From a virus (Duplodnaviria > Caudoviricetes), in the IMG/VR virus record IMGVR_UViG_3300030372_004501, positions 1 through 61,655 of that record: 61,655 bases of DNA. One strand, given 5' to 3'. Below are positions 5,950 through 58,757 of the stretch, in pieces. The notes beneath the pieces were generated by a model, which saw nothing but the letters and a program-made list of their open reading frames with translations, did not search any database and was not told the DNA's origin. The stretch's first letter is position 1, and the number at the start of each line of letters is the position of its first letter. Position numbers and translations under genes: made by a program.

Positions 5950-6183
5950 ATGGCTATAAATGAAAATACTACCGTGTTAGCTGGAAAAACAACTATTTCA
6001 GCACCTGATGTAGAAACTAAATCTACAATCAAACACGCAAAAACAGGGAAGGTTTATGCAAGTGAATCAGAAGCAGAGGCCGATGTCAATGACCCTGCAA
6101 CTAATACAAAACAAGAGGATATAAAAAGAGACGTGGCAATCAGTGTAAACAAATTACCAGATATATTAGGAGGGAGTTCATAA
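5950..6183 (+). CDS. Hypothetical protein
   Basis: GAGGA RBS; TAATG-coupled to next gene. Confidence 0.6.
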   Translation: MAINENTTVLAGKTTISAPDVETKSTIKHAKTGKVYASESEAEADVNDPATNTKQEDIKRDVAISVNKLPDILGGSS

Positions 6184-7421
6184 TGCATCCATTATTAATG
6201 GCAGCCTTAATTGGCGGCGTAACAGGTGGCGGAACAGCTTATATGTCAGGACGTGACCCACTAAGAGGTGCATTAATAGGCGCCGGAACTGGTGCAGCTA
6301 CAGCAGGAATAGGAAGTATATTTTCTCCAGCAGCAACAGCAGCAAAAGAAGCAGCTCTTAGAGGTTCTTTACTTTCACAAGCATCAGGTCAAGTTCCTGC
6401 GCAAGCAGCAAGCATGGTTACAAAACAAGCAGCAGCAGAAGCAGCTAAAAAAGCTGCAATTGCAAATTTAGGATTTAAAGAACAATTTAAACAAGCATTA
6501 ACAGGTGGATTTCCTGCTGATAAACTAGGTGCATATAAGTATGGTATATTACCAACTGTATCTGGCATGGGAGAATATTTATTAAATCCACGTGCAGAAG
6601 ATGATCCAAAGAAAAGATTTAGACCACCACTTAATATGTTTTATGGACGTAATCCAGGAAGATTTATGTTTGGAGAGTTTACTGATCCAGAAAAAATAAA
6701 AGAAATTTACAGTGATAGAGAAGATCCATATTATTTCCCTGAAGGTGCAGGATACGCTGGAGGTGGAATAGCATCTCTTCGACCACACTATCAAGAAGGT
6801 GGAGACACAAGTGGGCAAATGGGTGCAATGGCATCACGTGTATCATCATATCTTGCGGAACAAGGTATAGAGCCTACAATGGAAAATGTGCAAGATGTAA
6901 TAGAAAAAATTTTAGAACAACAAAATCGTGCCTATGAACCTTTAACAGGTATAGGTGGACAACTTCAACGAATGACACAGCAATATGCTTCTCCAATGGG
7001 AGAACAAATGCAAGATGAAACAGGACGTCCACAAATGAATATGGGAGGTAATCCAAGAAGATACTACCAAGAAGGTGGTATGGGTACGCCTATGTCTCCT
7101 ATGTTACCAACTGGCGATTTGGACATGCGTCCAGGTGGAGAACCAGTGGGCCCAGGAACCGGGGTATCAGATGATATACCAGCTATGTTAAGTGATGGCG
7201 AATTTGTTATGACGGCAGCAGCTGTTGAAGGTGCTGGTGGAGGAGATCGTGGATTGGGATCAGAGCGTATGATGAACATGATGCGTAACTTTGAACAAGG
7301 TGGACAACCATCTCAAGAGTCACAAGGACTTGGTTCAATGGAAGAAACAACTGTGACTGAAATGATCGGACCAGAAGGAATGATGATGGAGGAAGATACA
7401 ATGATGGAAGGTATGATATAA
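6183..7421 (+). CDS. Putative internal virion protein with tape-measure-type GPGTGxSDxIPAxLSxGEFV domain and six xxxGG motifs
   Basis: Gly/Ala-rich N-terminus; GPGTGVSDDIPAMLSDGEFVMTAAAV starting at 7149; YAGGG, YQEGG x2, MNMGG, MRPGG, FEQGG. Confidence 0.65.
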   Translation: MHPLLMAALIGGVTGGGTAYMSGRDPLRGALIGAGTGAATAGIGSIFSPAATAAKEAALRGSLLSQASGQVPAQAASMVTKQAAAEAAKKAAIANLGFKEQFKQALTGGFPADKLGAYKYGILPTVSGMGEYLLNPRAEDDPKKRFRPPLNMFYGRNPGRFMFGEFTDPEKIKEIYSDREDPYYFPEGAGYAGGGIASLRPHYQEGGDTSGQMGAMASRVSSYLAEQGIEPTMENVQDVIEKILEQQNRAYEPLTGIGGQLQRMTQQYASPMGEQMQDETGRPQMNMGGNPRRYYQEGGMGTPMSPMLPTGDLDMRPGGEPVGPGTGVSDDIPAMLSDGEFVMTAAAVEGAGGGDRGLGSERMMNMMRNFEQGGQPSQESQGLGSMEETTVTEMIGPEGMMMEEDTMMEGMI

Positions 7422-7428
7422 AAAGAAA

Positions 7429-7881
7429 GTGAGTTGGGACTTTGTAACAGAAAGGGATATACCATCTCTTCTGCAATTAACAATAGACACATACAAGGAG
7501 TCTGAATGGAGTGATACTGATTGGGATATAAAAAAGATAGAGCGTATGTTGTATCGAGCGATCAATGAACCTCATCAATTTTTTATCAAAGTTATGCGTA
7601 AAGATAAAATAATTGGATATCTTTTAGGTCACTATCAAGATTACTTTCACAATGACAAATTGTTTGCGACTGAAGATTTTATTTATGTTGTGCCTTCAAA
7701 ACGTGGAGGAGCAACAGCTCTGAAGATGATGCGTTTATTCATCAACTGGGCAAAAGGCATAGGAGTAAAGGAGATTTATTTTGAACCATCGGTTAACAAA
7801 AAAGATATTACACGATTTGATTCTTTCGCCAAGAAATTGGGGATGGAAGAATATTGTAAACATTATAGGATTAAAGTATGA
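7429..7881 (+). CDS. GNAT-family acetyltransferase-like protein
   Basis: FIYVVPSKRGGATALKMMRLFINWAKGIG matches GNAT motif A; GTG start. Confidence 0.75.
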   Translation: MSWDFVTERDIPSLLQLTIDTYKESEWSDTDWDIKKIERMLYRAINEPHQFFIKVMRKDKIIGYLLGHYQDYFHNDKLFATEDFIYVVPSKRGGATALKMMRLFINWAKGIGVKEIYFEPSVNKKDITRFDSFAKKLGMEEYCKHYRIKV

Positions 7882-8738
7882 GTAAGCCATCGGCACCACC
7901 AATGCCACCTGACGTTACAACTCAGACGCAATACGTACGTGAAGCACCTGAGATAGAAGCACGTAAGTTAGGATTAATGGACACTGCTTCGCAGTTGGCG
8001 CAGACAGGTTTAACAATTCCAACACAACAAGTAGCTGGATTTGAACCAACACAAACACAAGCATTTCAAAGACAACAAGCTGGATTAGGAACTTATGAAC
8101 CATTCTTAGGGGCAGCAGCACAATATGCAGGACAAACAACTGGTGCTTATGATCCACAATCTTATCAACAATTTTTAAATCCATACCAAGATTACGTAAC
8201 ACAAGGTATTGAAGATCAATTTGCTAAAATGCAAAACCAAGCTGCAGCAAGAGGAGTTCAAACAGGTGCGTTTGGTGGAGCTCGAGAAGGAATTCAATCT
8301 GCTGAACTTGGAGCACAACAAGCACAGACCGTAGGACAATCACTAGCTCAAGGTTATGGCGCAGCACAACAACAAGCAATGGGGTCTTTCCAAGATCAAC
8401 AAAGAAGATTACAACAAGCTGCACAATTTAGTGCAGGTTTAGGACAACAATTACAACAACAACAAGCTGCCGATGTTACTGGTCTTTTACAAACTGGAAC
8501 AATGCAACAACAAAGATCACAAATGGAAGAGGACGCTAAGTTTAAACAACAAATGGCACAACTTTATGAGCCGTATCAACGTACTGGATTTGTATCAGAC
8601 ATTTATCAAGGCGCACCAACAAGTGCATCTTCATTAACAATGTCTACTGCACCAGGAACTAACCCATTAGCACAAGCCGTTGGCGCTGGAATTACGGGTC
8701 TTGCAGCGTACCAAGGATTTGCGAATCAGAAAAATTAG
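7878..8738 (+). CDS. Gln-rich internal virion / DNA transfer (pilot-like) protein
   Basis: Very Gln/Ala/Gly-rich helical sequence, GAFGGAR motif, hydrophobic Gly-rich C-terminus. Confidence 0.65.
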   Translation: MSKPSAPPMPPDVTTQTQYVREAPEIEARKLGLMDTASQLAQTGLTIPTQQVAGFEPTQTQAFQRQQAGLGTYEPFLGAAAQYAGQTTGAYDPQSYQQFLNPYQDYVTQGIEDQFAKMQNQAAARGVQTGAFGGAREGIQSAELGAQQAQTVGQSLAQGYGAAQQQAMGSFQDQQRRLQQAAQFSAGLGQQLQQQQAADVTGLLQTGTMQQQRSQMEEDAKFKQQMAQLYEPYQRTGFVSDIYQGAPTSASSLTMSTAPGTNPLAQAVGAGITGLAAYQGFANQKN

Positions 8739-8743
8739 GTCGC

Positions 8744-11041
8744 ATGAATAGAAAAATATTAAGCAGACCTATGTTTCAAAACCGTCCACATTATTGGATT
8801 GCGGGTCCTGTTATAAAAGGTTCCAAAGCAACACTAGGTAAAATTCCTTTTATTGGTCCAAAGATTAAAAAAGGACTTGAAACTTTTGACAAATTTGATT
8901 TAGGATATGATCCTGTTAAAGGACCTATTCCTATTAAGAGAAAAGGATTTATAAAAGAAAGTTTAATTCCCACTAGAAAAACAGGTAAAGTTGCATCAGG
9001 CACGACTTATGGAATGGTGGGGTATAATCTTTTAAAAGAAGATGAAAATGTTCGTGAGGTAAAAGAGCAATCTGTTATTACAGATGATAATAATGTTATT
9101 AGTAAAGAGAAAATTGTAAATCCTAATATTTTAGATAAAATTGAATCTGCTAAAGATAATGTAGTTACTAAAATAACAGGAAACGCTAATGCCAATAAAG
9201 ATGAAAATTTTCAAGGAGGAAATGTTTTATCAGGTGATATATTTGCCACAAAAAATGAAACAGTAGAAAACACAGAGGAAGCTGCAAATAGTGAAGATGC
9301 TTTAAATATGAATCAGCAATTTTCTCCTTACTTAACTCCAAGTAATGCAGGGGAAGCAGCAGAATTAGAAAAAATTGACATGACTCGTGTTCGAGCTATG
9401 ACTGAACAATTAAGAGAACTCGTTGGTGATCCAGGAAAAAGAGATAATATTAATTTATTAATGCAACTTGGTTCAGCGTTAATGACAGGTAAAACATTAA
9501 GAGGTGGTCTTGCTGGATTTTTTGATGTTGCAGGACAAGCTGGTCTTCAAGTTCTTCCTCAAATGCTTGAAGTTTCTAATAGAAGAAATGCAAGAGATCA
9601 AGAATTAGCACTTGCAGCATTTCAATTAATACAAGAACAAAAAGGTGATGAAGCATTTGGTCCAGGAAAAGGAACAATGATTTATCCACACAAAATTACT
9701 TACCAAATGAATGAGGATGGTAGCTTCTTTAAAGATGACAATAATCAATATGTAGCTGTGGGATACACTCCAGTTGGTTCAGGTTTTGGTTTTAGTAAAG
9801 ATTTACAATCAAAAGCATTTATGGATGCTAATGCTTCACTTACTGCGCAAGGACTTCCTCCACTCTTTACATTGCTAGATGCAGCAACAACTGGTGAAAC
9901 AGGAGCGTTTGGTGCATTTGGTGAAGGTGAAATAGGAATGGAATCTCCAGGAGGACGTGATGAAAGAGAAAAATATGCAACTGTTTTAGAACGTGGCTTA
10001 CCTAAGATAGCTGAGATGTTAAACTTTATTACGTTATATTCAAATGGAACATATAACTCTGATAAATATGTGGGTCCTACAGGTTTATTTGCAGAAACAG
10101 CAAGAAGAGTTTTAGCACCTTGGGAACAAATTGCTGCGATTGCACCATGGATGGGTTCAACAGAAGCAGAAGTTGGAAACAGTATGGCTAAATCTTATTC
10201 AGAAGCTTTTGATCAATTAGAAAATTATTGGATGCAAAACATTGATACAGATAATGGTAAATTAGTAGATGTGTTTGAGACAGATAAGTTAAATACTGAT
10301 GGAACATTTACAGACACAGAAGGAATTTATGCAGGACAAACTTATACATACCGTGATGAAGGTGGAGCATTAAGAACAGGACAAACAGAAGTAGGTGATA
10401 TATATGAAACACCTTTATCTATAAGAATAAAAATTGGTGCGCAAGCATCGCCTTGGAAAGAAGGTACTGTTGGTATCATGGAACAATACAAAAACCAAAT
10501 AGGTATGATTGTTGCACGTTATAAACAACCTACAGGTCGTTTACTTGCAGATACAATTGCTGACTCTAAACGAGACGTTGATTTAACGCCAGGCATTATC
10601 TCTAATCCAAATGATATTGTTAATAGACAATTTAGATATTTTAAAAATTTCTTAGAAGATTGGAAAAGAAACTTAGAAGCAGCAGGAGTTGAAGTTACAG
10701 CAGAACTTATTGATGACCGTTTTGGTGCAGCTGATGGTTCTGGTGGCGGTCTTGCTTTAATTAACAAAGCTATCATACAATATAATGTTTGGGGATTATT
10801 AAAAGAAAAAGATACTAACTCTGCAATTCTTCCATCGTATGGCACGTGGGTTAAATTTCCAGGAGCAATATATCCTGGTGATGAAGCAGGTAATACTTTA
10901 TCAAGTATTATGGATCAGTTTCGTGAAGGAATTGGAAGCACTGAAGGTGGAACAATGGATGATAATTATTACATACCAGAGGACTTTGACACAGAGTCAT
11001 ATATAGAAGATTATTTTGATAAATTGGAGGGAATTCAATAA
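8744..11041 (+). CDS. Large putative internal virion (ejection) protein
   Basis: 765 aa ORF between pilot-like and largest internal gene; no recognisable enzymatic motif. Confidence 0.55.
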   Translation: MNRKILSRPMFQNRPHYWIAGPVIKGSKATLGKIPFIGPKIKKGLETFDKFDLGYDPVKGPIPIKRKGFIKESLIPTRKTGKVASGTTYGMVGYNLLKEDENVREVKEQSVITDDNNVISKEKIVNPNILDKIESAKDNVVTKITGNANANKDENFQGGNVLSGDIFATKNETVENTEEAANSEDALNMNQQFSPYLTPSNAGEAAELEKIDMTRVRAMTEQLRELVGDPGKRDNINLLMQLGSALMTGKTLRGGLAGFFDVAGQAGLQVLPQMLEVSNRRNARDQELALAAFQLIQEQKGDEAFGPGKGTMIYPHKITYQMNEDGSFFKDDNNQYVAVGYTPVGSGFGFSKDLQSKAFMDANASLTAQGLPPLFTLLDAATTGETGAFGAFGEGEIGMESPGGRDEREKYATVLERGLPKIAEMLNFITLYSNGTYNSDKYVGPTGLFAETARRVLAPWEQIAAIAPWMGSTEAEVGNSMAKSYSEAFDQLENYWMQNIDTDNGKLVDVFETDKLNTDGTFTDTEGIYAGQTYTYRDEGGALRTGQTEVGDIYETPLSIRIKIGAQASPWKEGTVGIMEQYKNQIGMIVARYKQPTGRLLADTIADSKRDVDLTPGIISNPNDIVNRQFRYFKNFLEDWKRNLEAAGVEVTAELIDDRFGAADGSGGGLALINKAIIQYNVWGLLKEKDTNSAILPSYGTWVKFPGAIYPGDEAGNTLSSIMDQFREGIGSTEGGTMDDNYYIPEDFDTESYIEDYFDKLEGIQ

Positions 11042-14000: not shown

Positions 14001-14184
14001 ACCAACTGGTGGAGATGTGGGTGGAACACAACTTGCTTCTACAGCTCCAGTAGCAGGTTCATCTCTTGCGGAGAGTGATACTTTAAATCCAGGAGCAGCA
14101 CAAGCATTGTATGAGGGTGATACAGATGCAGCCTTAGCAGCACAGTATGCAGCTGGAGGTGGATTAATGACCTTAAGGAGATAG
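11041..14184 (+). CDS. Large putative internal virion (ejection) protein
   Basis: 1047 aa; two Gly-rich hydrophobic segments; C-terminal YAAGGGL motif. Confidence 0.6.
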   Translation: MAILDVVPVARKFQDRKPASQPISEYTSIDKGGRPITAAEQNIRDDRERFIDPVFDPIKGAASRAVRRIGDVFTPGGTPFMDQYRKQERQKAAQEISFEKKMQLRRENPKDVVRARATNMFDAAVRKYNDTGNPETLKMAEESIIKMIRLSGYAPQEFNLPGTIDISNVDPDPFKLDTTRPNPFPELEISAEVIMGTGASLYGATNTGARNFANAFKRGAKIGSKAPVPGAWKFAASVLGGAFGVGAAYFGYELGLDLYNQANKARATMQGRDPKTYAINRPGLGARLYRSADLAATDALLGTVILGTRPAYNSLRNITRTYVGGVGTEGAAKIKRGQELFDKFPTGGYGVEGKLPAELGSIPITPVPGGPRLQVGQTGLDDVAELRRGLFPFYWGNIERGAGEMPIQGTPYSISTLGNPMSGTVIQTGGRFPFLGSKIKQNLEEQGDILINLFHNMFAAYAPTVATRELMSHNILMAKRKTASRYLANLKRKLNRFRRHARETGYVIDGSPIRFTMEGVLDSVPKARFLDDTGAYRTDVKIGLGPEIRFPEGEKSFYNWVNNTLQGMLGPRSKFSVIELEKLFKDIETYARRYKDNPDVMDHLSRIKRSTEASLGTIENSEARRLLDDFDNYATNGMLLFDSSAGRAFNAVDKFGFTLRLAEQGPRAADDLFATAFDAARPEAIRSFRHIVGPDVFNQTTRRFIQNAFEDSIEAGPKEGIKQIDFKKFRSILGLNDKAGNKYAALKEMLPGATPTSSVGREATATTPGGFSSKDFDATIKPGGLIPGAVMEGVESSTAKLPTVNDLEAWADMVEDVFKFGIPDVSTFIARRAQISGLRGAIRSFMPLSNVGSQHAIAAGGGAATGAFGTGIPIGIILGTLLTRHFTKIMTNPINLRVYKNAIDYKLPERARNAAIVRLFHLFRNEIEDIDKDLEQLEYQSTQPAKRSFVDRATENIGNVIQKVMPARSEPQAQVQPTIQTPPQQVTPTGGDVGGTQLASTAPVAGSSLAESDTLNPGAAQALYEGDTDAALAAQYAAGGGLMTLRR

Positions 14185-14186
14185 AT

Positions 14187-14324
14187 ATGGTATCGGCAGT
14201 TAAAAAAATATTAAAAACTATGAAAAAATTAAAAAAAATTAAAAATCTTAAAAAACGTCCTATGCGTAATATTAAAGTTAAAAATTATGCAAAAAGAAAT
14301 TATGGAAAAGGCGGAAAAGTATAA
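14187..14324 (+). CDS. Small Lys-rich protein ending in YGKGGKV (45 aa)
   Basis: MVSAVKKILKTMKKLKKIKNLKKRPMRNIKVKNYAKRNYGKGGKV*; AAGGAG RBS; TAATG overlap with next gene (not in ORF track). Confidence 0.75.
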   Translation: MVSAVKKILKTMKKLKKIKNLKKRPMRNIKVKNYAKRNYGKGGKV

Positions 14325-14530
14325 TGAGTTTAAGAGATACAGTTTGGATAGTTGGAATTATTCTTGCCCTTGGTGTAACATGGGGCATGACATCACAACG
14401 TATTTCTGCAATGGAATCCGATATGGATCGTATGGAACAAGCCATACAACTATTTACAAAAATAGAATCAAGAATCGCTGTCATAGAGGCAGAGGTTAAA
14501 AACATAAATAAAAAATTGGATAGGTTATAA
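14324..14530 (+). CDS. Small membrane protein (one TM helix + coiled coil), possible holin/lysis accessory
   Basis: VWIVGIILALGVTWG hydrophobic helix; directly precedes endolysin. Confidence 0.55.
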   Translation: MSLRDTVWIVGIILALGVTWGMTSQRISAMESDMDRMEQAIQLFTKIESRIAVIEAEVKNINKKLDRL

Positions 14531-15036
14531 TGCAAAAAAATTATCAAAAATGTTTAGAGACAATATTACATCACGAAGGTGGTTATGTTAATCACCCAGA
14601 AGATCCAGGAGGAGAAACTAATTTAGGTGTTACTAAAAGAGTTTATGAAGAACATGGTGGTACTAAAGATATGAAAGAATTAACAGTAGAAGATGTAGCA
14701 CCAATTTATAAAAAAGGTTATTGGGATAAAATGAAAGGTGATGATTTACCTAATGGTTTAGATTTATGTGTATTTGATTTTGGTGTAAATGCAGGACCTG
14801 GTAGAGCCGCTAAATTTTTACAAAAAATGATTGGTACTACAGTAGATGGTGGCATTGGACCTATGACCTTGGCTAAAGTAAATGAGTATGTTGGTGACAA
14901 TGGTTTAAAAGAAAGTATAAAACAATATCAATCTGCTAGACAAGAATACTATGAAAACCTTTCTACTTTTAATACTTTTGGAAAAGGTTGGACAAGAAGG
15001 GTAGAGGAGACTACTAAACTAGCATTAGAAATATAG
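14530..15036 (+). CDS. Endolysin, glycoside hydrolase family 108 with peptidoglycan-binding C-terminus
   Basis: HEGGYVNHPEDPGGETNLGVT catalytic motif; VDGGIGPMTL; FGKGWTRR. Confidence 0.93.
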   Translation: MQKNYQKCLETILHHEGGYVNHPEDPGGETNLGVTKRVYEEHGGTKDMKELTVEDVAPIYKKGYWDKMKGDDLPNGLDLCVFDFGVNAGPGRAAKFLQKMIGTTVDGGIGPMTLAKVNEYVGDNGLKESIKQYQSARQEYYENLSTFNTFGKGWTRRVEETTKLALEI

Positions 15037-15045: not shown

Positions 15046-15708
15046 ATGAGTGGGATAATAAATTTTTTATTAAAAAGTAAAAAAGTTCCATTAAAACTTA
15101 AGTTAAAAATTGTAGACTTAAATTTTAGAAAATTTAAAGCAAATGAAATTAAAAATAATCTTAAAGCAAATACACCTTTAAAATTATATCGTGCAGAAAA
15201 TTATCCAGGGCAAGCCCCATTTATGCGTCCTGATACAGACCCTAAAAAAGAATTTGTAGGTCGTTGGTTTACAACTGATAAAAATTTTGTTAATAGATTT
15301 GCTACTAACACACCTGATACTAAAGCAATTAAGACACTTACAGTTGATCCACCTATTAAAGCTAATCCTGTTGATAGACATAAAACAATTAGTGAATTAA
15401 TAAAAGATAGAAAAAAATTAAAAGATTGGACTCCTAATATGGGAATGGGTGAAAATCTTGATGCAATTACCACTAGCTATAAAGGTGGAAAAGATTCTTT
15501 TATGACAAGATTAGAAAGTTATTTAAATTCTTCTTTAAGAGATTCAATAACTTTAACTCCTCCAAAAGAAATAGCATCCACTTCAAAAATTAATACATGG
15601 CTTAGTCTTTTAGCAATTTTAAAAAATAAAAATCCACGAATGTTTAAGGAAATTTTGAATTTAATTAAAGCTAAACGAATAGGATTAAAAACTGGCGGAA
15701 TAGTCTAA
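15046..15708 (+). CDS. Basic hypothetical protein with possible ADP-ribosyltransferase-like core
   Basis: LYRAE...GRWFTTDKNFVNRFA resembles ART strands 1-2; C-terminal LKTGGIV. Confidence 0.4.
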   Translation: MSGIINFLLKSKKVPLKLKLKIVDLNFRKFKANEIKNNLKANTPLKLYRAENYPGQAPFMRPDTDPKKEFVGRWFTTDKNFVNRFATNTPDTKAIKTLTVDPPIKANPVDRHKTISELIKDRKKLKDWTPNMGMGENLDAITTSYKGGKDSFMTRLESYLNSSLRDSITLTPPKEIASTSKINTWLSLLAILKNKNPRMFKEILNLIKAKRIGLKTGGIV

Positions 15709-23758: not shown

Positions 23759-24054
23759 GCATGACTAAAGAAGAAATATTAAAGAAAGCTAAAGATCTTA
23801 TCAGCGGTGATAGGAATGACACACATGGAGATGCATTTCAAAATCATGCAGAAATTGCAGAATTTTGGAATATATTTTTAGATAAAAAGTTACGACCAAT
23901 GGCAAGTATTACAGCTGAGGATGTAGCATTGATGATGGTTTTGATGAAGATATCAAGGAATAACCAAGGCAAGAAAAACAATTTGGATAACTTCATTGAT
24001 ATGTGTGGTTATGCAGCAATAGCAGGAGAAATTAATGACTCAGGATCTTTTTAA
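23755..24054 (+). CDS. DUF6378-like all-helical nucleotide hydrolase-related protein
   Basis: DRNDTHGD..N...IA..W...VALMMVLMKISR...DNFIDMCGYAA pattern. Confidence 0.75.
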   Translation: MSMTKEEILKKAKDLISGDRNDTHGDAFQNHAEIAEFWNIFLDKKLRPMASITAEDVALMMVLMKISRNNQGKKNNLDNFIDMCGYAAIAGEINDSGSF

Positions 24055-33579: not shown

Positions 33580-33852
33580 CTATTTTAATTTGTAAGATTT
33601 AGGTCCACCCATTTGTTTTCTTCTTTTAACAAAATCAGAAACTTGTTTTTTCCTAGTTTTAGGTCCAGGTGTTCCTCTTGGTACTGGGTTATTTTTTAAC
33701 CAGTTTCTAAACCAATTAGGTATTGCTTCTTTTGTACCAGCTAGATCTCTTGCACCAGCTAAAGTTTTTCTTCTTGTTAAGAATTTAGAAGTTTCTTGAG
33801 CTTTCTTTGCTTTTTTTAATGCTTTTCCAGCTTTTTTTAATATTCCAACCAT
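33580..33852 (-). CDS. Lys-rich basic protein
   Basis: Amphipathic MVGILKKAGKALKKAKK; KQMGGP near C-terminus. Confidence 0.7.
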   Translation of the reverse strand: MVGILKKAGKALKKAKKAQETSKFLTRRKTLAGARDLAGTKEAIPNWFRNWLKNNPVPRGTPGPKTRKKQVSDFVKRRKQMGGPKSYKLK

Positions 33853-43003: not shown

Positions 43004-44205
43004 TGAAATCACAAGGCATTTTATCGAGGTACGTGCGACCGGGGTATTCAAGAGGTCAATACGTCCAAGAAGCAAAAAAAGATGATATTGGTGGCGGTAT
43101 TAGAGACTACGATAAAAAACGAAGAGAATTTTTTAGAAATCCTAATTTAGTTTTATTTAAAAGAACAAGAAAGAGCGATGATAATCCTTATGATTATGAA
43201 GTTGAAGAATTAGACGTATCACAATTTGATCCTAAAAAAGTTAAGGATGGAACACAATTAATAATTCAATATAGTGGTGAAACAGGAGAGTTAATTCCTG
43301 GAACTGGTTTTGATGGCAGTATTGGTTTGGAAGATGCACCTTTTTTATTTTATTCTAGTCCAGGTGATGTCAGAAAATTATTAGATTCTACTGATTATGA
43401 TGATATGATTTACGGTAAACCTTTCGCGGACGATGCAACATTTCTTGATAAGGTAAAAGAAAGAACAAAAATGATGGGAAGAGGTATTGTAGGATTTGCA
43501 AAAAATCTTCCTGAAATGTCAATTGGTGCTTATCGTTTTTTACAACCAATTGATGCATTAGGTGGTATTGGACCCGTAGACACTCTTTTCCCAAAAAGTG
43601 AAGAACAAAAAAAACAAGTAGACGAAATGTATGAGTTTCCAGGTTATAGTAATTTAATGAGAGAAAAATATGGTATTGAACCTTTTCAAACACCTAAAGG
43701 TGTTTTTGGTGGTATACTTGATGCAGATGAATCTTTATATAAAGATACTTTAGTTGATGATCGAATGAAAGCAGGATTAATGCAACAAAGAGAATTATAT
43801 GATGTATTACAAATGTATGGTGATGATGAACTTAGAGCAGAATTAGAGGAAGAAGGCGCGAGCCCAGAAGAAATTCAAGAATATTTTGATATTAAAAACA
43901 TGACAGAGGAAGATTTTAAAGATTTAAAATATTATTCAGACCGTGATGCTTTATCACATGATATTCCAGGAGCATTTAGTAGTATTGCAGGAACTCTTCC
44001 CCTTGCAGCTGGACCACTTGGTGTCGTGGGCCAAGGAGCAAATCTCATAAGTAAAGGAAATAGATTAAGTCAAATGATAAGCAAATTAAGAAAGCCTGCT
44101 AAAGTTAAGGCGTTAGATGCAGGTGTTGGAACTGGTGTTATTCCAGGAAGTTTAGAAGCTCTAGGAAGAGAAGTTATACCAAGTGTAACAGATAAATTTG
44201 AGTAA
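43003..44205 (+). CDS. Hypothetical protein (possible virion cargo)
   Basis: 400 aa ORF TAATG-coupled between terL and next gene. Confidence 0.6.
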   Translation: MKSQGILSRYVRPGYSRGQYVQEAKKDDIGGGIRDYDKKRREFFRNPNLVLFKRTRKSDDNPYDYEVEELDVSQFDPKKVKDGTQLIIQYSGETGELIPGTGFDGSIGLEDAPFLFYSSPGDVRKLLDSTDYDDMIYGKPFADDATFLDKVKERTKMMGRGIVGFAKNLPEMSIGAYRFLQPIDALGGIGPVDTLFPKSEEQKKQVDEMYEFPGYSNLMREKYGIEPFQTPKGVFGGILDADESLYKDTLVDDRMKAGLMQQRELYDVLQMYGDDELRAELEEEGASPEEIQEYFDIKNMTEEDFKDLKYYSDRDALSHDIPGAFSSIAGTLPLAAGPLGVVGQGANLISKGNRLSQMISKLRKPAKVKALDAGVGTGVIPGSLEALGREVIPSVTDKFE

Positions 44206-49245: not shown

Positions 49246-49782
49246 ATGGTTACAGGATTATCAGCAACAATTATAAGACGATTGAGAAATCAAATGGCGA
49301 AATCATCAAAAAGTACAGCGCGTGAGCGTGCAATTGCAAGAGCTGGGAAAAAAGGACAAAAAGGACCACTTGCTAGAATATTATCAAAATCAAGAACAGG
49401 AAAACCAAGTCCACACGTAGATCCTCCTAAACGAAAAAGAATGACGTCAGATGACTATAAGAAGTTTTTGGATAAATATGCACCAAAACCAAAAAAAATA
49501 CGAAAAACGACACCAATGAAAAAAGGTGGACCAGCTGATAAACGTGACCCAGGATTCATGAAAAGAATGAAACCTGGAGCAAAACAAAGAGATACATACA
49601 CAACCACTTTTCATAAAAGTAAAGAAGCAGCTAAAAAAGATAAAGGAAAGCTTGGTACACCTGGAGAAAAAATGAGAACAATTAGGGGTAAAATAGCGGC
49701 TGGAAAAGCACGTACTAAAAAAGTGTTAAGAGGTGGTTTTGATATAGGTAAGAAAATACGTTATCAAAGACGAGGAAAATAA
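49246..49782 (+). CDS. Lys/Arg-rich basic protein
   Basis: AGGAG RBS; MKKGGPA motif. Confidence 0.7.
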   Translation: MVTGLSATIIRRLRNQMAKSSKSTARERAIARAGKKGQKGPLARILSKSRTGKPSPHVDPPKRKRMTSDDYKKFLDKYAPKPKKIRKTTPMKKGGPADKRDPGFMKRMKPGAKQRDTYTTTFHKSKEAAKKDKGKLGTPGEKMRTIRGKIAAGKARTKKVLRGGFDIGKKIRYQRRGK

Positions 49783-50219
49783 TGGCTCTTGATAAAGTAT
49801 TAAAGATATTTAAAAAAGCTAAAGATTTAAAGTCTGGCGTGAAAACTGCCATTAAAGAAGTTGGTAAAGAAAAATTTAAAAAACACGCAAAAAACGTTCC
49901 AGAAGTAGTTCGCGGCAATATTCTTAAAAAAGATATTAAAAAAGGTAAAAAACAGGCTGCTAAAACTAAAGCTGTTCCACATCAACCAATTAGATATACT
50001 AAGGAAGAGCTTAAACGAATGCGAAGTGAAGCGAGAGCTTCACAACGAGGTGTTAAAGCTTGGAAGACAAGAAAAAAAGCAGTTAAAGAAGGAAAAAAAC
50101 CGGATCGACACTCTCTTCTTGGTAAAAAAGGATATAATTATCACTTGCTAAGTGAAGGTGGTTCTGTTAGAAAATCACGCCCCGCAAAACGCGGATGGGG
50201 CGCAACTAAACGAAAATAG
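49782..50219 (+). CDS. Lys-rich basic protein
   Basis: TAATG-coupled; LSEGGSV then AKRGWGA. Confidence 0.7.
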   Translation: MALDKVLKIFKKAKDLKSGVKTAIKEVGKEKFKKHAKNVPEVVRGNILKKDIKKGKKQAAKTKAVPHQPIRYTKEELKRMRSEARASQRGVKAWKTRKKAVKEGKKPDRHSLLGKKGYNYHLLSEGGSVRKSRPAKRGWGATKRK

Positions 50220-50362: not shown

Positions 50363-51342
50363 TGGCTGACGCTAGAGAACGATACATAGCAAAATCAAAC
50401 ACTCCAGCAATAGGAAGTTATGGTGGTGGAGAAGACTTTGGATCTCCTTTTGTAGGAGGCCAAGGTCAACCACCAGGAACAACGAATGAAGCTAGTGTAC
50501 CTTATGGTGGTAGCACACCTACAGTCGCACCCCCACGTAGTAGTAGTGGTAATACGAACCTAGATAATATAGTTTTAAACACAACAGGTTCTGGAGCTAC
50601 AGGTGGAGAAGATAAATTATCTTCTAGTGCTAATTTTTTTGGAGTAGGACTAAATGATCCATTTGGATTAGACCCAAAATTTGGAATTGATAATTATTAT
50701 AAATATCTTATGGATCAACAAGAGGCTACAGGAAATCAATTTTTACCTGATTATACAAAAAATTTAATTACTAATGAACCAGCTGAAGCTAACCTTATGC
50801 CCAATATACCCAATGTTCCAAATACAGGATTTGATTTGAATCCATTACCTGGAGTTCTAGGTGGAGGAGAGCCTGGTATAGGTTATAAAGGAGATAATTT
50901 TAGTTTTGGTCTTGATATTGATCCTAATCTTAATTTAGGAAATATGTCTATTAATCCTACAGCAACAGCAAATTTTCAATATAGTTTTGATAAAGGTGGA
51001 CCAGTTGGTGGACCAGAAATCGATCAAAGTGGAATTGCATCATTATATCCAGAAATGTCTGAAAAACCACGTAAATCTTTTGGCGCAACAAGAGAAAATG
51101 TAGGGGAACAATTAGAAGCATTTAGAAATGCTCCAGTTCACGTTGATCCACCTAACATAGGATTTATGGGTGAAAAAATACCAGCACCATTATTTGATCG
51201 TGCAATGAAATATTTAGAAAGTTTGCCTCCTTCTGAAAGAGCAGTTATAGAAGAAATGTTTAGAGAAAATATAATGAAAAAAAGAATGCAAGAGATTGAA
51301 GAAATGCAACAATCACAATCAATTCCTACTTTAGATGCTTAA
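50362..51342 (+). CDS. Gly/Pro/Asn-rich hypothetical protein
   Basis: Low-complexity; FDKGGPV and SGIASL motifs. Confidence 0.6.
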   Translation: MADARERYIAKSNTPAIGSYGGGEDFGSPFVGGQGQPPGTTNEASVPYGGSTPTVAPPRSSSGNTNLDNIVLNTTGSGATGGEDKLSSSANFFGVGLNDPFGLDPKFGIDNYYKYLMDQQEATGNQFLPDYTKNLITNEPAEANLMPNIPNVPNTGFDLNPLPGVLGGGEPGIGYKGDNFSFGLDIDPNLNLGNMSINPTATANFQYSFDKGGPVGGPEIDQSGIASLYPEMSEKPRKSFGATRENVGEQLEAFRNAPVHVDPPNIGFMGEKIPAPLFDRAMKYLESLPPSERAVIEEMFRENIMKKRMQEIEEMQQSQSIPTLDA

Positions 51343-51736: not shown

Positions 51737-52144
51737 ATGGTAATGTCATCATTAATAAAATCAGCAAAAAAATTAAAGAAACACATGGGTAAGGTAAAAT
51801 CTAGACCTAGAGGGCCAGCAGGTGGACCAACTCCGAAAAAGAAAAAAATGAAAGCAGGTGGCGTTGCCATGAAAGCCGACATCAATAAAAATAAAAAAAT
51901 TGAACCTTGGGAAGCAGCTCGATCTAGAGCTATTACAAAATCAATGGCTAAAAAGAAAACAGGAATGAAAAAAGGTGGATCTGTTAAAAAAGGCACACAT
52001 GTAACAAAAGAAGGTAAAACAGCTAAAAAAGGATTGTGGTATAATATTCATCAAAAAAGAAAACGTGGTGAAACCATGAGAAAGAAAGGTGCTAAAGGTG
52101 CACCAACAGCAGCAGCGTTGAAAAGAAGTCAAAGCCGTGGCTAA
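51737..52144 (+). CDS. Lys-rich basic protein
   Basis: MKAGGV and MKKGGSV motifs; KKGLWYNIH.KRKR...GAPT module. Confidence 0.7.
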   Translation: MVMSSLIKSAKKLKKHMGKVKSRPRGPAGGPTPKKKKMKAGGVAMKADINKNKKIEPWEAARSRAITKSMAKKKTGMKKGGSVKKGTHVTKEGKTAKKGLWYNIHQKRKRGETMRKKGAKGAPTAAALKRSQSRG

Positions 52145-52418
52145 AACGGCAGCATGGCAACGTAAAGAAGGTAAAAGCAAATCGGGTGGATTAAATCGTA
52201 AAGGTATTGCATCTTATCGTGCTAAAAATCCTGGCTCTAAACTTAAGATGGCAGTTACAACAAAACCATCTAAATTAAAAAAAGGATCTAAATCTGCTAA
52301 AAGAAGAAAAAGTTTTTGTGCTAGAATGTCTGGTATGAAAAAAAGTCGTACAAGTGCAAAAACAGCAAATGATCCTAATTCTAGAATAAATAAATCCTTG
52401 CGAAAATGGAATTGTTAG
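52137..52418 (+). CDS. Basic conserved phage protein (DUF6321-like)
   Basis: AWQRKEGK..SGGLN.KG..SY...RRKSFCARM...SRINKSLRKWNC. Confidence 0.7.
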   Translation: MAKTAAWQRKEGKSKSGGLNRKGIASYRAKNPGSKLKMAVTTKPSKLKKGSKSAKRRKSFCARMSGMKKSRTSAKTANDPNSRINKSLRKWNC

Positions 52419-54094: not shown

Positions 54095-54565
54095 ATGAAT
54101 AAAAATATAAAAACAAATAAACTACCATCACGCGAGTCTGAAACCCGAGTTAAAACCGAACGAAGGAAACCATGGGCTCCACCGTCTCAGTTAGACGCAC
54201 CACCTGCACCAGCTGGTTTTAAACATCGCTGGATAAGGGCTGAAACAGTAGGACAGATGGATCAAAAAAATGTATCCGCTAGACTACGCGAAGGTTGGGA
54301 ATTTGTCAGAGCTGACGAATATCCTGATGTTCAATGGCCTGCAATAGACTCAGGTAGATATAACGGTGTCATAGCTGTTGGGGGTTTAATGCTAGCAAGG
54401 ATTCCAGAGGAAACTGTTAAAGAGCGTGAAAAACATTTTGCACAAGTAACGCAAGATAAAGATGACGCAATTGCTAACGATCCTTTGAAGGACCAACATC
54501 CTAGCATGCCTATCTCAAATGAGAGAAGCTCTCGCGTAACATTTGGTGGCGGTAAGAAGAACTAG
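54095..54565 (+). CDS. Conserved head-associated protein
   Basis: W.PPS.L.AP....G..HRWIR...REGWEFV...GGLMLARIP between scaffold and capsid genes. Confidence 0.65.
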   Translation: MNKNIKTNKLPSRESETRVKTERRKPWAPPSQLDAPPAPAGFKHRWIRAETVGQMDQKNVSARLREGWEFVRADEYPDVQWPAIDSGRYNGVIAVGGLMLARIPEETVKEREKHFAQVTQDKDDAIANDPLKDQHPSMPISNERSSRVTFGGGKKN

Positions 54566-57666: not shown

Positions 57667-57674
57667 AGGTTTAA

Positions 57675-58424
57675 ATGGCTTATTCAGGCACACAAACCTT
57701 TAACTTATCAATAGAGGAAATAATTCAAGAAGCGCATGAGCGTTGTCAATTAGAAGTACGTGAAGGATATGATTTAAAAACTGCTAGAAGATCTATAAAC
57801 TTAATGTTAGCAGAATGGGCAAATCGTGGTTTAAATTTATGGACCATAGAATATGCAACACAAACTTTAACAGCTGGCACTAATTATTATTCTATTGATC
57901 AAAAGGTAATAGATATAGTAGATGCAGTGGTAACAACCACTACAGGTGCTACATCTAATTTAGAAGGTGATAGTAACACAACAGATGTTGCTATGAATAG
58001 AATTTCTAGAACTGAATATATGAATTTAGCTAAAAAAGAAAATTCATCTAGTGGTGACTCTAGGCCCACTCAATTTGCTTTAATACCAGGACAAGTAACT
58101 GTTGGAGGATCTTCTTCTAGTGGTAGACCAGAAAATGATATGACACTGTTTTTATATCCAAGTCCAGATAAAGCCTACATATTTAAATATTTTTATATGG
58201 GAAGAATACAAGATGCAGGTGACTATACTAATAATGCAGATGTACCTTTTTATTTTTTACCTTGTTTGACTGCAGGATTAGCTTACTATATAAGTTTAAA
58301 AAAAGCACCTATGTTAAGTGCAAATTTAAAATCGGTGTACGACGAAGAATTTAATCGTGCTAGAGATAACGATCGCGAAAGAGTGTCTTTCAGGGTTGAA
58401 CCAGCAGTGGCTTATAGGCCATAG
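57675..58424 (+). CDS. Head-tail adaptor / tail tubular protein A-like
   Basis: TARRSINLMLAEWANRGLNLWT, RISR.EY, RP.QF, LYP.PD, GLAYY. Confidence 0.7.
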   Translation: MAYSGTQTFNLSIEEIIQEAHERCQLEVREGYDLKTARRSINLMLAEWANRGLNLWTIEYATQTLTAGTNYYSIDQKVIDIVDAVVTTTTGATSNLEGDSNTTDVAMNRISRTEYMNLAKKENSSSGDSRPTQFALIPGQVTVGGSSSSGRPENDMTLFLYPSPDKAYIFKYFYMGRIQDAGDYTNNADVPFYFLPCLTAGLAYYISLKKAPMLSANLKSVYDEEFNRARDNDRERVSFRVEPAVAYRP

Positions 58425-58437
58425 GAGATAAGTGAAG

Positions 58438-58527
58438 ATGGCAAAATGTGAAAAATGTGGTTGTGATTGCGATTGTAAAGACAATTGTCAATGTACAAAC
58501 TGTGAATGTAAAAAGGAGGAAAAATGA
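58438..58527 (+). CDS. Metallothionein-like Cys-rich peptide (29 aa, 9 Cys)
   Basis: MAKCEKCGCDCDCKDNCQCTNCECKKEEK*; AGGAG RBS; ATGA overlap with next gene. Confidence 0.7.
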   Translation: MAKCEKCGCDCDCKDNCQCTNCECKKEEK

Positions 58528-58757
58528 GTAATCCAAATTGGAATAAAGATTCTAACGCTGGAAGAAATTCTAAAGGTGGAGTAAAAGGAAATTGGAGTAA
58601 CAGAGGAACTATTTCTGTACCTAATCCTACACCTAAAGAAAAAGAAAAAACTATTTCTATTGCTAAAGGTACTATTACAGGTACTGCAAAAGGAATGGGT
58701 GCAGCTACTAAAGGTGGAAAATATAGTTGGGTTGGACCTAAAGATTCTAAATGGTAG
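58524..58757 (+). CDS. Small basic protein
   Basis: AAGGAGG RBS; KGMGAATKGG motif. Confidence 0.65.
   Translation: MSNPNWNKDSNAGRNSKGGVKGNWSNRGTISVPNPTPKEKEKTISIAKGTITGTAKGMGAATKGGKYSWVGPKDSKW

What the first reader, a model, noticed from the sequence alone, without database searches (positions are those of the whole stretch)
6183..58757. A genome-wide xxxGG peptide tag on ~12 unrelated proteins plus a candidate reader/protease domain
Seen: a [YFMLK]-x-x-G-G-x-[VIA]-like motif recurs in otherwise dissimilar proteins. ORF 6183 has YAGGGI (6753), YQEGG (6789, 7065), MNMGG (7035), MRPGG (7125) and FEQGG (7290). Others are YAAGGGL (14146), YGKGGKV* (14301), LKTGGIV* (15685), KAVGGSI (33280-33300 minus), KQMGGP (33601-33618 minus), FNIGGVV (44757), YNTGGLV (46452), MKKGGPA (49516), LSEGGSV (50148), FDKGGPV (50986), MKAGGVA (51848), MKKGGSV (51965), and a weaker ATKGG in 58524. 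Degenerate versions start 8744 (RPHYWIAGPV) and 43003 (RPGYSRGQYV), echoing RPHYQEGG. Many copies lie near the C-terminus or at apparent domain borders. ORF 6183 also carries GPGTGVSDDIPAMLSDGEFV (7149-7208). Recalled: siphophage tape-measure C-termini (e.g. lambda gpH, which is C-terminally processed) have FAxGG followed by a ..GEFV domain in cis. Inference: here the domain works in trans as a receptor or Glu-peptidase for the tag, forming a sorting/maturation system that loads diverse cargo (basic peptides, ART-like and polyvalent-like proteins) into the virion for injection.
Basis: partly seen in the sequence, partly recalled or inferred. Interest (0 to 1): 0.88.

Follow-up and report, generated by a model that had tools for sequence, protein, structure and literature searches.

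The report
Conserved GG junction tag on phage cargo
A marine short-tailed phage marks the ends and joints of a set of otherwise unrelated particle proteins with one short glycine-glycine motif, the same motif that flanks the cleaved end of phage lambda's tail ruler protein, so it is probably a shared loading or cutting signal, although neither binding nor cutting has been shown.

Summary
The window is a 92%-complete podophage record distantly related to Pelagibacter phage HTVC023P. All listed strings exist. The motif is real. In 57 to 65 relatives of ORF 44205 the two glycines are the only invariant columns of the last 60 residues. 30 of 30 aligned relatives of ORF 15046 end in xxGG plus a short tail. 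In 81 related loci the motif concentrates in a few cargo families and is absent from scaffold, GroES and other neighbours.

It sits where genes split and fuse: 154 of 326 junction contexts against 4.8% expected. The same small cargo domain (DUF6321) is preceded by [LIV]xE in phages that encode a T4-type head protease, and by xxGG here.

ORF 6183's GEFV stretch matches tape-measure families and lambda gpH. It is one unstructured end-module, itself flanked by the motif, present in over 6,000 protein clusters. Nothing supports it as a trans reader or protease, and no protease family was found in the record.

Best reading: a lineage-specific recognition signal for loading and probably cutting virion-internal cargo. 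The scan has noted this GG/GEFV theme before on other DNA.

The parts
6183..7421 (+). ORF 6183 (412 aa): N-terminal glycine-zipper hydrophobic segment, then six xxxGG motifs (YAGGG 6753, YQEGG 6789, MNMGG 7035, YQEGG 7065, MRPGG 7125, FEQGG 7290), the GEFV module and a Met/Glu-rich tail
   Evidence: five of the six motifs kept in 3-5 distinct homologues; YAGGG in 1 of 4
7113..7325 (+). GG-GEFV end-module (aa 311-381 of ORF 6183), the only copy in the record
   Evidence: Module HMM E 2.6e-31, no other window protein below E 0.7. PHROG tape-measure families, E 3.2e-8 to 1e-4. 6301 cluster representatives at E <= 1e-3. Invariant G..GPGTGTSD.(I/V)PA.LS.GEFV.
8783..8812 (+). Degenerate N-terminal copy RPHYWIAGPV in ORF 8744 (765 aa)
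   Evidence: Relatives read RQHYGPGG, RQHYNPGG and RPKRWIGG; HTVC023P gp82 reads RHFKEGG
14146..14166 (+). C-terminal YAAGGGL (then MTLRR*) of ORF 11041 (1047 aa)
   Evidence: Kept as AA[EQ]GGL in 4 of 4 homologues. HTVC023P gp83 ends FNRGGIADVRRK.
14187..14324 (+). 45-aa Lys-rich ORF ending YGKGGKV* (tag 14301-14321)
   Evidence: its one homologue, in L007, ends NYRRGGKI*
15685..15705 (+). C-terminal LKTGGIV* of ORF 15046 (220 aa)
   Evidence: G217 and G218 invariant in 30 of 30 aligned homologues
33280..33300 (-). KAVGGSI in the Lys-rich ORF 33142..33570; weak form of the motif (K at -3)
   Evidence: no homologue among my loci, so conservation untested
33601..33618 (-). KQMGGP near the C-terminus of the Lys-rich ORF 33580..33852; weak form of the motif
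   Evidence: conservation untested
43036..43065 (+). Degenerate N-terminal copy RPGYSRGQYV in ORF 43003 (400 aa)
   Evidence: The one homologue (L009) reads RPGFKEGG
44757..44777 (+). FNIGGVV in ORF 44205 (768 aa), at a module border
   Evidence: GG kept in 31 of 34 homologues. Relatives insert SLT-like or SleB-like stretches after it, recognised by eye only. Split ORFs start just after it.
46452..46472 (+). C-terminal YNTGGLV of ORF 44205, followed by FEPIVSPLI*
   Evidence: 65 of 65 homologues keep GG; the only invariant columns of the last 60 residues
49516..49536 (+). MKKGGPA in the Lys-rich ORF 49246 (178 aa)
   Evidence: No homologue among my loci. Same form as the repeated [MYL][KR][KR]GG of the small basic family in related loci.
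50148..50168 (+). LSEGGSV in the Lys-rich ORF 49782 (145 aa)
   Evidence: The one homologue (L008) has AKGGSVRK at the same place, with different flanks
50986..51006 (+). FDKGGPV in ORF 50362 (326 aa, Gly/Pro/Asn-rich)
   Evidence: The homologue in L010 has four copies. 26 of 29 members of the like family in related loci carry the motif.
51737..52144 (+). ORF 51737 (135 aa): basic head, MKAGG (51848), small module, MKKGG (51965), then 'domain B' (KKGLWYNIHQKRKR..GAPT)
   Evidence: Split ORFs in L051/53/55/56 start exactly after the MKKGG. Domain B is fused upstream of the GEFV module in 4 of 150 module proteins. MKAGG lies in a segment absent from homologues.
52137..52418 (+). DUF6321 cargo module (93 aa), here a separate ORF overlapping the end of 51737
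   Evidence: Pfam PF19846, E 1.1e-17. In other phages it is preceded by xxGG or by [LIV]xE.
54536..54553 (+).
   Evidence: 13 of 13 family members in related loci end in V[TS]FGG plus 3-5 residues

Best explanation
The motif, a hydrophobic or aromatic residue, two residues, Gly-Gly, one residue, then usually Val/Ile, is a lineage-specific recognition signal. It marks the ends and joints of this phage's virion-internal (probably ejected) cargo proteins.

The cargo is a pool of small, mostly basic modules and a few larger proteins encoded among the head and internal-protein genes. Relatives string the same modules into longer proteins, or fuse them to a glycine-zipper protein that ends in the GG-GEFV module. 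In this phage they are split into separate genes that keep the motif at their ends.

I think the motif is read during particle assembly to load these proteins. It is probably also the place where fused forms are cut. In this it resembles the capsid-targeting sequence plus protease site of T4 internal proteins, and the still unexplained cut in the glycine-rich end of lambda gpH. The GEFV stretch of ORF 6183 is the terminal anchor element of the same system, not a separate reader enzyme.

Shown: the motif is conserved under selection, lies at module borders and at gene fission/fusion points, is confined to certain families, and is homologous to the tape-measure element.

Inferred: presence in the virion, binding to a common partner, cleavage, and delivery into the host.
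For: 1. Selection on the motif itself. GG is kept in 65 of 65 and 31 of 34 homologues of ORF 44205 where flanks are 21-23% identical. The two G are the only invariant columns in a 57-sequence alignment. They are invariant in 30 of 30 aligned homologues of ORF 15046.

2. Family-specific distribution. In 453 ORFs downstream of the portal in 81 related loci, the motif is in 59 of 73 small basic proteins (42 of 73 in the last 25 aa, often in tandem arrays), 26 of 29 members of the 50362-like family and 13 of 13 of the 54095-like family. It is in 0 of 66, 0 of 21, 0 of 19 (GroES), 0 of 17 (scaffold-like) and 0 of 8 members of neighbouring families.

3. Module border. Where an ORF start aligns inside a longer homologue, 154 of 326 distinct junction contexts have GG in the preceding 6 residues, against 4.8% of positions (1262 of 26,224). 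These contexts lie in 4 cargo families with at least 7 different joints.

4. Same cargo, two joints. Of 119 DUF6321 domain starts in 120 longer proteins, 78 are preceded by [LIV]xE and about 15 by xxGG. In 80 viral loci, 30 are GG-type and 17 [LIV]xE-type. 3 of 5 [LIV]xE records encode a T4-type prohead protease (Peptidase_S77, E about 5e-34), against 0 of 5 GG-type records and none in the window. [LI]xE as the T4 gp21 cutting rule is recalled, not taken from a call. That gp21 trims internal proteins carrying a capsid-targeting sequence is in passages of PMC9958956.

5. Link to the GEFV module. Domain B of ORF 51737 is fused just upstream of the module in 4 of 150 module proteins, and a piece of ORF 8744 in 1 of 150. 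The module is present once in each of the 3 near-complete GG-type genomes (window and HTVC023P gp79; G006). It is absent from 4 of 4 large [LIV]xE records that are 62-94% complete.

6. Lambda gpH. It carries FATGG, GEFV, YATGG and MRDGG in its last 120 residues, which is 4 of the 8 [FYM]xxGG in lambda. It is cut in its glycine-rich region by an unknown protease at an unknown site (passages of PMC12617516). Cuts after GG at residues 710-737 would give fragments of 77.7-80.1 and 12.2-14.6 kDa, against about 78 and about 14 kDa reported.

7. Natural N-terminus after the motif. In 3 relatives a Tat-like SRRKFLK signal lies internally just after the motif. In a fourth the ORF begins there.
Against: - No protease of 7 families tested (Prok-JAB, NlpC/P60, S78, S77, S49, C39, C48) is in the 92%-complete record. 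A cut would therefore need an unknown phage enzyme, a host enzyme or self-cleavage.
- No virion proteome of this phage group was seen, so 'cargo' rests on gene position, composition and analogy.
- The motif is very short. Proteome-wide enrichment rests on a post hoc pattern, is not reproduced in HTVC023P, and a one-family matrix does not transfer.
- Strict conservation at extreme C-termini (GG plus two residues) and tandem arrays with a period of about 8 residues fit a binding repeat better than a cut site, so loading without cutting is equally open.
- The junction statistic is pseudo-replicated. At family level only 4 of 29 query families show it, and most of the other 25 look like short alternative-frame ORFs.
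- The GG-type records used for the protease and co-occurrence comparisons are mostly small fragments, 7-28% complete.
- T5 pb2, the other tape measure known to be cut, is cut after R1127, not after GG (PMC10038345).
Confidence: 0.5

Rival explanations
1. One reading: the GEFV domain of ORF 6183 acts in trans as the receptor or a Glu-dependent peptidase that binds or cuts the xxxGG tags of the other proteins.
For: - One module per near-complete GG-type genome, 3 of 3, and none in 4 of 4 large [LIV]xE records.
- Cargo domains fused to it elsewhere, 5 of 150 module proteins.
- Invariant S, D and E residues in the module.
- The protease that cuts gpH in lambda is unknown (PMC12617516).
Against: - The module is about 70 residues with no confident fold: mean pLDDT 55.8, pTM 0.29, only two short helices.
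- No solved relative at E <= 10 and no Pfam family at E <= 0.01.
- In all architectures it is the extreme C-terminal end of variable proteins, or a repeated joint inside giant proteins, flanked by the motif in cis. That is how an anchor or substrate behaves, not an enzyme.
Confidence: 0.12
2. Passive linker: xxxGG is only a turn-forming, flexible hinge between small modules. It is kept because proteins that must pass the tail channel need breakable joints, and because it tolerates gene fission and fusion. Nothing reads it.
For: - It lies at module borders and fission points.
- The predicted models around it have low confidence.
- Other lineages use quite different joints for the same domain.
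Against: - A hinge does not explain the conserved aromatic or hydrophobic residue at -3 and the Val/Ile at +2.
- It does not explain invariance at extreme C-termini, where nothing is joined.
- It does not explain why the alternative joint in other lineages fits a known protease rule and goes with that protease gene.
Confidence: 0.2
3. DNA-binding turn: in the Lys-rich proteins the [MYL][KR][KR]GG repeats are minor-groove-binding turns, in the manner of SPKK or AT-hook motifs (recalled), for condensing the AT-rich genome. The other instances are unrelated.
For: - Tandem arrays with a period of about 8 residues in proteins with 30% Lys+Arg, encoded next to the portal.
- The genome is 33-38% G+C.
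Against: - The same motif, equally conserved, occurs in acidic or neutral contexts: YQEGG, FEQGG, YNTGG, FDKGG.
- It also occurs in tape measure proteins.
Confidence: 0.08
4. Chance or composition: a 5- to 7-residue pattern picked by eye in glycine-rich structural proteins.
For: - The pattern is post hoc.
- [YFMLK]xxGG alone is 35 against 29.6 expected.
- HTVC023P shows no enrichment.
- At least 6 of the 17 regex hits are unrelated.
Against: Conservation across 24-71% identical homologues, with GG as the only invariant columns; the family-specific distribution; and the coincidence with gene fission points.
Confidence: 0.03

Closest known systems
C-terminal GG-GEFV region of lambda-type tape measure proteins (lambda gpH residues about 730-785, inside the cleaved fragment gpHC)
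   Same: - Same sequence element: [FY]xxGG, then G.G...(P)A....GE[FY]V, a helix, then [FY]xxGG.
- PHROG tape-measure families match ORF 6183 aa 313-377.
- gpH is cut in this glycine-rich region, and the fragment stays in the tail tip as a trimer on gpI (passages of PMC12617516 and PMC10721106).
   Different: - Here the element ends a 412-aa glycine-zipper protein of a short-tailed phage that has no tape measure.
- In lambda, 4 of the 8 [FYM]xxGG are in gpH in cis. Here the flanking motif is spread over about ten other proteins.
- The direct BLASTP match to gpH is weak (E 0.24).
T4 internal proteins (IPI-III, Alt): capsid-targeting sequence plus gp21 prohead-protease site
   Same: - A short shared signal on unrelated, partly basic proteins encoded among head genes, used to load them into the head and then trimmed (passages of PMC9958956).
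- The same DUF6321 cargo module carries [LIV]xE joints in phages with an S77 protease.
   Different: - The signal here is C-terminal or internal, not an N-terminal leader.
- It ends in Gly-Gly, not Glu.
- No prohead protease gene was found.
- Neither loading nor cutting has been shown.
Polyvalent proteins of phages and conjugative elements
   Same: Strings of small unrelated modules, thought to be delivered with the DNA. Relatives of the window's proteins show such strings.
   Different: - In the window the modules are split into separate genes.
- No diagnostic polyvalent-protein domain was matched: ART-PolyVal gave no hit and Pfam is empty for 44205 and 15046.
- I do not recall a shared GG joint being part of that description.
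Adenovirus protease sites (M/I/L)XGG-X on basic core proteins (recalled)
   Same: A Gly-Gly site with an upstream hydrophobic residue on small, very basic DNA-associated virion proteins.
   Different: - The hydrophobic residue here is one position further from the GG.
- There is no clan-CE peptidase: Peptidase_C48 gave no hit, and adenain itself was not tested.
- The resemblance is of style only.

Membership tests
Lambda-type tape measure C-terminal GG-GEFV element | Significant sequence match to tape measure families over the element | tested here: met
   phrog_5448 E 3.2e-8, phrog_25241 E 7e-6, phrog_6090 E 9e-6 and phrog_3547 E 1e-4, over aa 274-377
Lambda-type tape measure C-terminal GG-GEFV element | GE[FY]V core flanked on both sides by [FYM]xxGG | tested here: met
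   MRPGG...GEFV...FEQGG in ORF 6183; FATGG...GEFV...YATGG in gpH
Lambda-type tape measure C-terminal GG-GEFV element | Carried by a tail tape measure protein of a long-tailed phage | tested here: not met
   The carrier is a 412-aa protein. The record is related to the podophage HTVC023P and has an SU10-type adaptor. No PHROG match outside the element.
Lambda-type tape measure C-terminal GG-GEFV element | Proteolytic release of the C-terminal fragment during assembly | not testable with these tools
   Needs virion proteomics
T4-type capsid-targeting/protease-site cargo system | Unrelated cargo genes among head genes share one short signal | tested here: met
T4-type capsid-targeting/protease-site cargo system | A prohead protease gene in the genome | tested here: not met
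   No S77, S78 or S49 match at E <= 1 in the 92%-complete record
T4-type capsid-targeting/protease-site cargo system | The signal is an N-terminal leader removed at an [LI]xE site | tested here: not met
   The signal is C-terminal or internal and ends in GG
Polyvalent proteins | Several unrelated small modules in one polypeptide | tested here: inconclusive
   True of relatives. In the window the modules are mostly separate ORFs.
Polyvalent proteins | A diagnostic domain such as ART-PolyVal | tested here: not met
   PF18760 gave no match at E <= 1. The atlas gave only a lead at 0.82. The AF2 model was too poor to test the fold.
Gly-Gly-specific peptidase systems (JAB/ubiquitin-like, C39 double-glycine leader, clan CE) | A cognate peptidase encoded with the substrates | tested here: not met
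   No match for Prok-JAB, C39 or C48. Adenain (C5) was not tested.

The most novel reading that the evidence does not exclude
The xxxGG motif is the cut-and-load signal of a so far unrecognised maturation system. It would be shared by proteins that leave the particle through the tail: podophage ejection and internal proteins on one side, siphophage tape measures on the other. The conserved GG-GEFV element, or a host enzyme, would perform or direct the cut. The decades-old unexplained cleavage of lambda gpH would then be one instance, and thousands of phage 'hypothetical' proteins would be readable as tagged cargo.
Probability: 0.2. Interest if true: 0.85.

Novelty: new variant of a known kind. 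Interest (0 to 1): 0.62.

Why it matters
HTVC023P-type phages are described in the abstract of PMC9599517 (search listing) as the most abundant and widespread pelagiphages. Most of their particle proteins have no annotation.

- A short signal that marks which proteins belong to the internal or ejected set would allow cargo to be read from sequence, including cell-wall hydrolases and possible host-modifying enzymes.
- It would explain why the same small modules appear fused in one phage and split in the next.
- It gives a concrete, testable guess for where lambda gpH is cut. PMC12617516 states that both the site and the enzyme are unknown.
- If the signal suffices for loading, it could serve as a handle for packaging foreign proteins into podophage particles, as the T4 capsid-targeting sequence does.

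Tried and rejected
- Family-derived scoring matrix. Built from 33 distinct C-termini of the ORF 44205 family and scanned over the other 84 window proteins. At threshold 6 it gave 5 hits against 2.72 +/- 1.58 in shuffles, and 2 against 1.13 at threshold 8. An earlier, wider matrix found only the protein it came from.
- HTVC023P as an independent proteome. No enrichment, although orthologous ends do carry the motif.
- Alternative-frame ORFs as a control. 0 hits in 14,150 residues, but GG itself is about 9 times rarer there, so the control is uninformative.
- Solved structures. phmmer of ORF 6183 found nothing at E <= 10.
- Pfam and PHROGs. Both were empty for the tagged ORFs 8744, 11041, 15046, 43003, 44205, 50362 and 49246. 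Pfam was empty, and PHROGs gave only function-unknown or marginal families, for 49782 and 51737. Pfam alone was run on 33142 and 33580 and was empty. Pfam on seven small basic proteins of related loci, two GEFV-module proteins (P0013, P0043) and ORF 14187 gave only two chance-level matches.
- AF2 of ORF 6183 aa 300-412 with a 47-row alignment: mean pLDDT 55.8. AF2 of ORF 15046 with 30 rows: 56.1. Both were too poor for a fold search, so none was run.
- Complex prediction of the GEFV module (alignment A1) with the ORF 44205 C-terminal 60 residues (A2). The verdict was 'no answer' (score 0.00, controls not folded). It counts neither for nor against binding.
- Protein atlas. ORFs 44205 and 15046 fall in unnamed viral clusters. 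The only named lead was ART-PolyVal at 0.82.
- Literature searches.
  - 'GEFV' with 'phage' returned 100 papers; the 10 listed were all on gastro-oesophageal valves.
  - 'polyvalent proteins' plus four other terms returned 1 paper, whose listed title and abstract do not mention such a motif.
  - 'DUF6321' returned 0 papers.
  - 'HTVC023P' returned 10 papers, seen as listing only.
  - Within these searches I found no description of the motif. Supplements were closed, so virion proteomes in supplements may bear on this.
- T5 pb2 as a second cleaved tape measure. It is cut after R1127, so it gives no support for GG.
- Co-occurrence across 46 records. It was limited by fragment size: 29 of the 30 GG-type records are under 30% complete.
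- Sequence look-up of ORF 51737 in earlier findings: nothing.

Full report
WHAT THE WINDOW IS

The window is a whole virus record of 61,655 bases with an estimated completeness of 92%. G+C is 33-38%. Its terminase-to-portal region is about 65% identical in DNA to Pelagibacter phage HTVC023P and HTVC027P. I worked with 85 ORFs totalling 19,590 residues.

The late block runs from the large terminase (41546) across the record's ends to ORF 15046, in this order:
- Portal 46513 (phrog_1216).
- A run of small Lys-rich ORFs.
- A DUF6321 ORF at 52137.
- A GroES-like ORF at 52613. It shares the KTKGGVI stretch with HTVC023P gp36, which is annotated co-chaperone GroES.
- A coiled-coil, scaffold-like ORF at 53122.
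- Capsid protein 55260 and an SU10-type adaptor 57675.
- Fibre-like ORFs.
- A virion structural protein at 3504 (phrog_3287).
- ORF 6183, a GNAT at 7429, and large ORFs with no family match at 7878, 8744 and 11041.
- A GH108 lysozyme at 14530.

The replication genes lie between 15727 and 28516.

THE OBSERVATION

All 21 strings exist. YGKGGKV* ends a 45-aa ORF that the 60-aa ORF list misses.

It was defined after the fact. At least 6 of the 17 hits are unrelated: GroES, terminase, fibre-like proteins and others.

Other simple statistics are mixed.
- In favour: GG falls in the last 25 residues of 18 of 85 proteins against 9.3 expected. [FYM]xxGG occurs 21 times in late genes against 2 elsewhere.
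- Against: there is no single-position enrichment around the 140 GG sites. A one-family matrix does not transfer. HTVC023P shows no enrichment.

On statistics alone the case would be weak.

CONSERVATION

I fetched 80 loci around portal homologues, 6 around ORF 6183 homologues and 1 around an ORF 8744 homologue from IMG/VR. I called their ORFs and compared them with the window.

- ORF 44205 has 68 homologues. Its C-terminal aromatic-x-x-G-G is kept in 65 of 65 distinct sequences while the flanks are 23% identical. The internal FNIGG keeps its GG in 31 of 34. Other GG sites of the same protein are kept in 55 of 125.
- In a 57-row alignment of the last 60 residues (24-71% identity), G45 and G46 are the only invariant columns and Y42 is at least 90% conserved.
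- ORF 15046 has 77 database homologues. I aligned 30 of them spanning 40-89% identity. All 30 carry G[LY]xxGG near the end; 29 follow it with two residues and the stop, one with a six-residue tail.
- The motifs of 6183, 11041, 14187, 49782, 50362 and 51737 are kept in their few homologues, sometimes where the flanks differ.
- Two listed copies are not conserved: YAGGG of 6183 and MKAGG of 51737.
- Four proteins had no homologue in my loci: 33142, 33580, 49246 and 58524.

WHERE THE MOTIF SITS

Among 453 ORFs downstream of the portal in 81 loci, grouped into 56 families, the motif is concentrated in a few.
- Small basic proteins: 59 of 73, often as tandem [MYL][KR][KR]GG arrays, and 42 of 73 in the last 25 residues.
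- A Gly/Pro-rich family like ORF 50362: 26 of 29.
- The ORF 54095 family: 13 of 13 at the C-terminus.
- A membrane-like family: 5 of 5.
- Five neighbouring families, including GroES and the scaffold-like protein, have none: 0 of 66, 21, 19, 17 and 8 members.

The motif also marks where genes split and fuse. When an ORF start aligns inside a longer homologue, 154 of 326 distinct contexts have GG within the 6 preceding residues, against 4.8% of positions. This is not 154 independent events. It comes from 4 of 29 query families, with at least 7 different joints. Most of the other 25 families look like short alternative-frame ORFs.

In relatives of ORF 44205, stretches that look like SLT-type or SleB-type wall hydrolases are inserted between two copies of the motif. 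I recognised these by eye and did not test them with Pfam.

THE GEFV STRETCH

Residues 313-377 of ORF 6183 match four tape-measure PHROG families. Residues 300-385 find 6301 cluster representatives at E <= 1e-3 and 876 at E <= 1e-10.

Two architectures appear among the best 150 hits:
- proteins of about 80-630 aa with the match at the extreme C-terminus;
- giants of 1,000-5,300 aa with 3-5 copies.

In the 50 sequences I read, variable segments are joined by an extended form of the motif, roughly hydrophobic-A-x-G-G-x-[IV]-x-R-P-G-Y-x-x-G-G. ORF 6183's GYAGGGIASLRPHYQEGG follows it. The proteins end with the module.

Lambda gpH shows the same order: FATGG, GEFV, YATGG, MRDGG. Direct BLASTP to gpH is weak, E 0.24.

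A module HMM finds one copy in the window and one in HTVC023P, in gp79.

As a monomer the module has no confident fold (mean pLDDT 55.8) and no solved relative.

It therefore behaves as an end or anchor element of variable proteins, as earlier follow-ups of this scan concluded on other DNA, and not as an enzyme domain.

A NATURAL EXPERIMENT ON THE JOINT

ORF 52137 is a DUF6321 module, and 7,980 longer proteins contain it. In the 120 stored proteins there are 119 domain starts.
- 78 are preceded by [LIV]xE at a fixed short distance.
- 14 are at the N-terminus.
- 6 are preceded by the strict motif.
- About 9 more are preceded by xxGG with another residue at -3.

In 80 viral loci I counted 30 GG-type, 17 [LIV]xE-type, 11 ORF starts and 20 others.

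- 3 of 5 [LIV]xE records encode a T4-type prohead protease; the other two are 62% and 26% complete.
- 0 of 5 GG-type records do, at 15-78% complete. Nor does the window.
- [LI]xE as the gp21 cutting rule is my recollection. Passages of PMC9958956 confirm that gp21 trims internal proteins carrying a capsid-targeting sequence. PMC7411985 gives AXE for the SPN3US enzyme.

So in this lineage the GG motif occupies the place that a protease site occupies on the same cargo in T4-like phages.

The GEFV profile hits the one largely complete GG-type record (E 9e-10). It hits none of the 4 large [LIV]xE records.

Domain B of ORF 51737 is fused directly upstream of the module in 4 of 150 module proteins.

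CUT OR ONLY BOUND?

For a cut:
- the protease-site analogy above;
- the exact coincidence with gene fission points;
- three relatives with an internal Tat-like signal just after the motif, and a fourth whose ORF starts there;
- lambda gpH, which is cleaved in its glycine-rich region at an unknown site by an unknown enzyme. Fragment sizes for cuts after GG at residues 710-737 fit the reported values.

Against a cut, or for binding only:
- seven protease families are absent from the record;
- the motif is strictly kept at extreme C-termini, where a cut would remove two residues;
- the tandem arrays would yield 8-residue peptides;
- T5 pb2 is cut after Arg.

I therefore commit only to a recognition signal for loading and probably cutting of virion-internal cargo, at 0.5.

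COMPARISON AND NOVELTY

The element is homologous to the tape-measure C-terminal region, but its carrier is not a tape measure. The system works like the T4 capsid-targeting and protease system. It fails two of that system's defining features, the N-terminal leader and the prohead protease gene.

It is a new variant of a known kind of system. The scan has already noted the GG/GEFV theme on other DNA. What this window adds:
- the spread of the motif over about ten separate genes in one genome;
- the fission/fusion evidence;
- the two-joint comparison on one cargo domain.

I found no paper on the motif in the searches listed under Tried and rejected.

Noticed in passing
L018 (ORF 2..3847, residue 261), L040 (6064..10008, residue 350), L059 (5679..10001, residue 353), L022 (1852..5646, residue 22): Relatives of ORF 44205 carry a twin-arginine-like signal (SRRKFLK plus an Ala-rich stretch). 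In three it lies deep inside a 1,281-1,440-aa protein, just after an xxxGG motif. In the fourth the ORF starts there. An internal export signal in a presumed particle protein is unexplained.
   Followed up: partly
window 14187..14324, 15046..15708, 33142..33570(-), 33580..33852(-), 49782..50219, 51737..52144: Six of the eight window proteins with more than 25% Lys+Arg, and ORF 15046, begin with a similar cationic amphipathic stretch of the type M..(I/L)(I/L)KK..K..KK. They may therefore carry a second shared element at the N-terminus.
   Followed up: no
window 24035..25879, 29335..29877(-), 59257..59952: Three proteins end exactly in Gly-Gly: the DNA polymerase ...ESWGG*, a coiled-coil membrane protein ...NPLGG*, and a structural-module protein ...KSTGG*. 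About 0.5 would be expected by composition.
   Followed up: no
L090 (lambda) 14276..14875: Lambda gpK matches NlpC/P60 (E 3.4e-13) and, below the cut-off, the C-terminal part of Prok-JAB (E 6e-5). JAB enzymes cut after Gly-Gly in ubiquitin-like systems (recalled). gpK is therefore a candidate for the unknown enzyme that cuts gpH; I did not test this.
   Followed up: no
P0229-P0348 and L091-L170: DUF6321 is a very widespread small basic module with at least 7,980 longer fusion proteins. It is joined to many other small modules, including HicA-like and zeta-toxin-like Pfam families, by lineage-specific joints: EEVE(L/Q)(I)DE in large phages, xAxGG in others.
   Followed up: partly
P0043, P0048, P0058, P0061, P0068, P0070, P0075: One subgroup of proteins that end in the GEFV module also starts with a GE.V-like stretch (...GDTYIVHAAEGETV(I/V)P...), so the element seems to sit at both ends.
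   Followed up: no
window 7429..7881: A GNAT acetyltransferase gene (Pfam E 4.2e-7) lies inside the internal-protein gene block, directly after ORF 6183. One GEFV-module protein from elsewhere (P0026) begins with what looks, by eye only, like the GNAT's N-terminal stretch; BLASTP at E <= 1e-3 did not report it.
   Followed up: no
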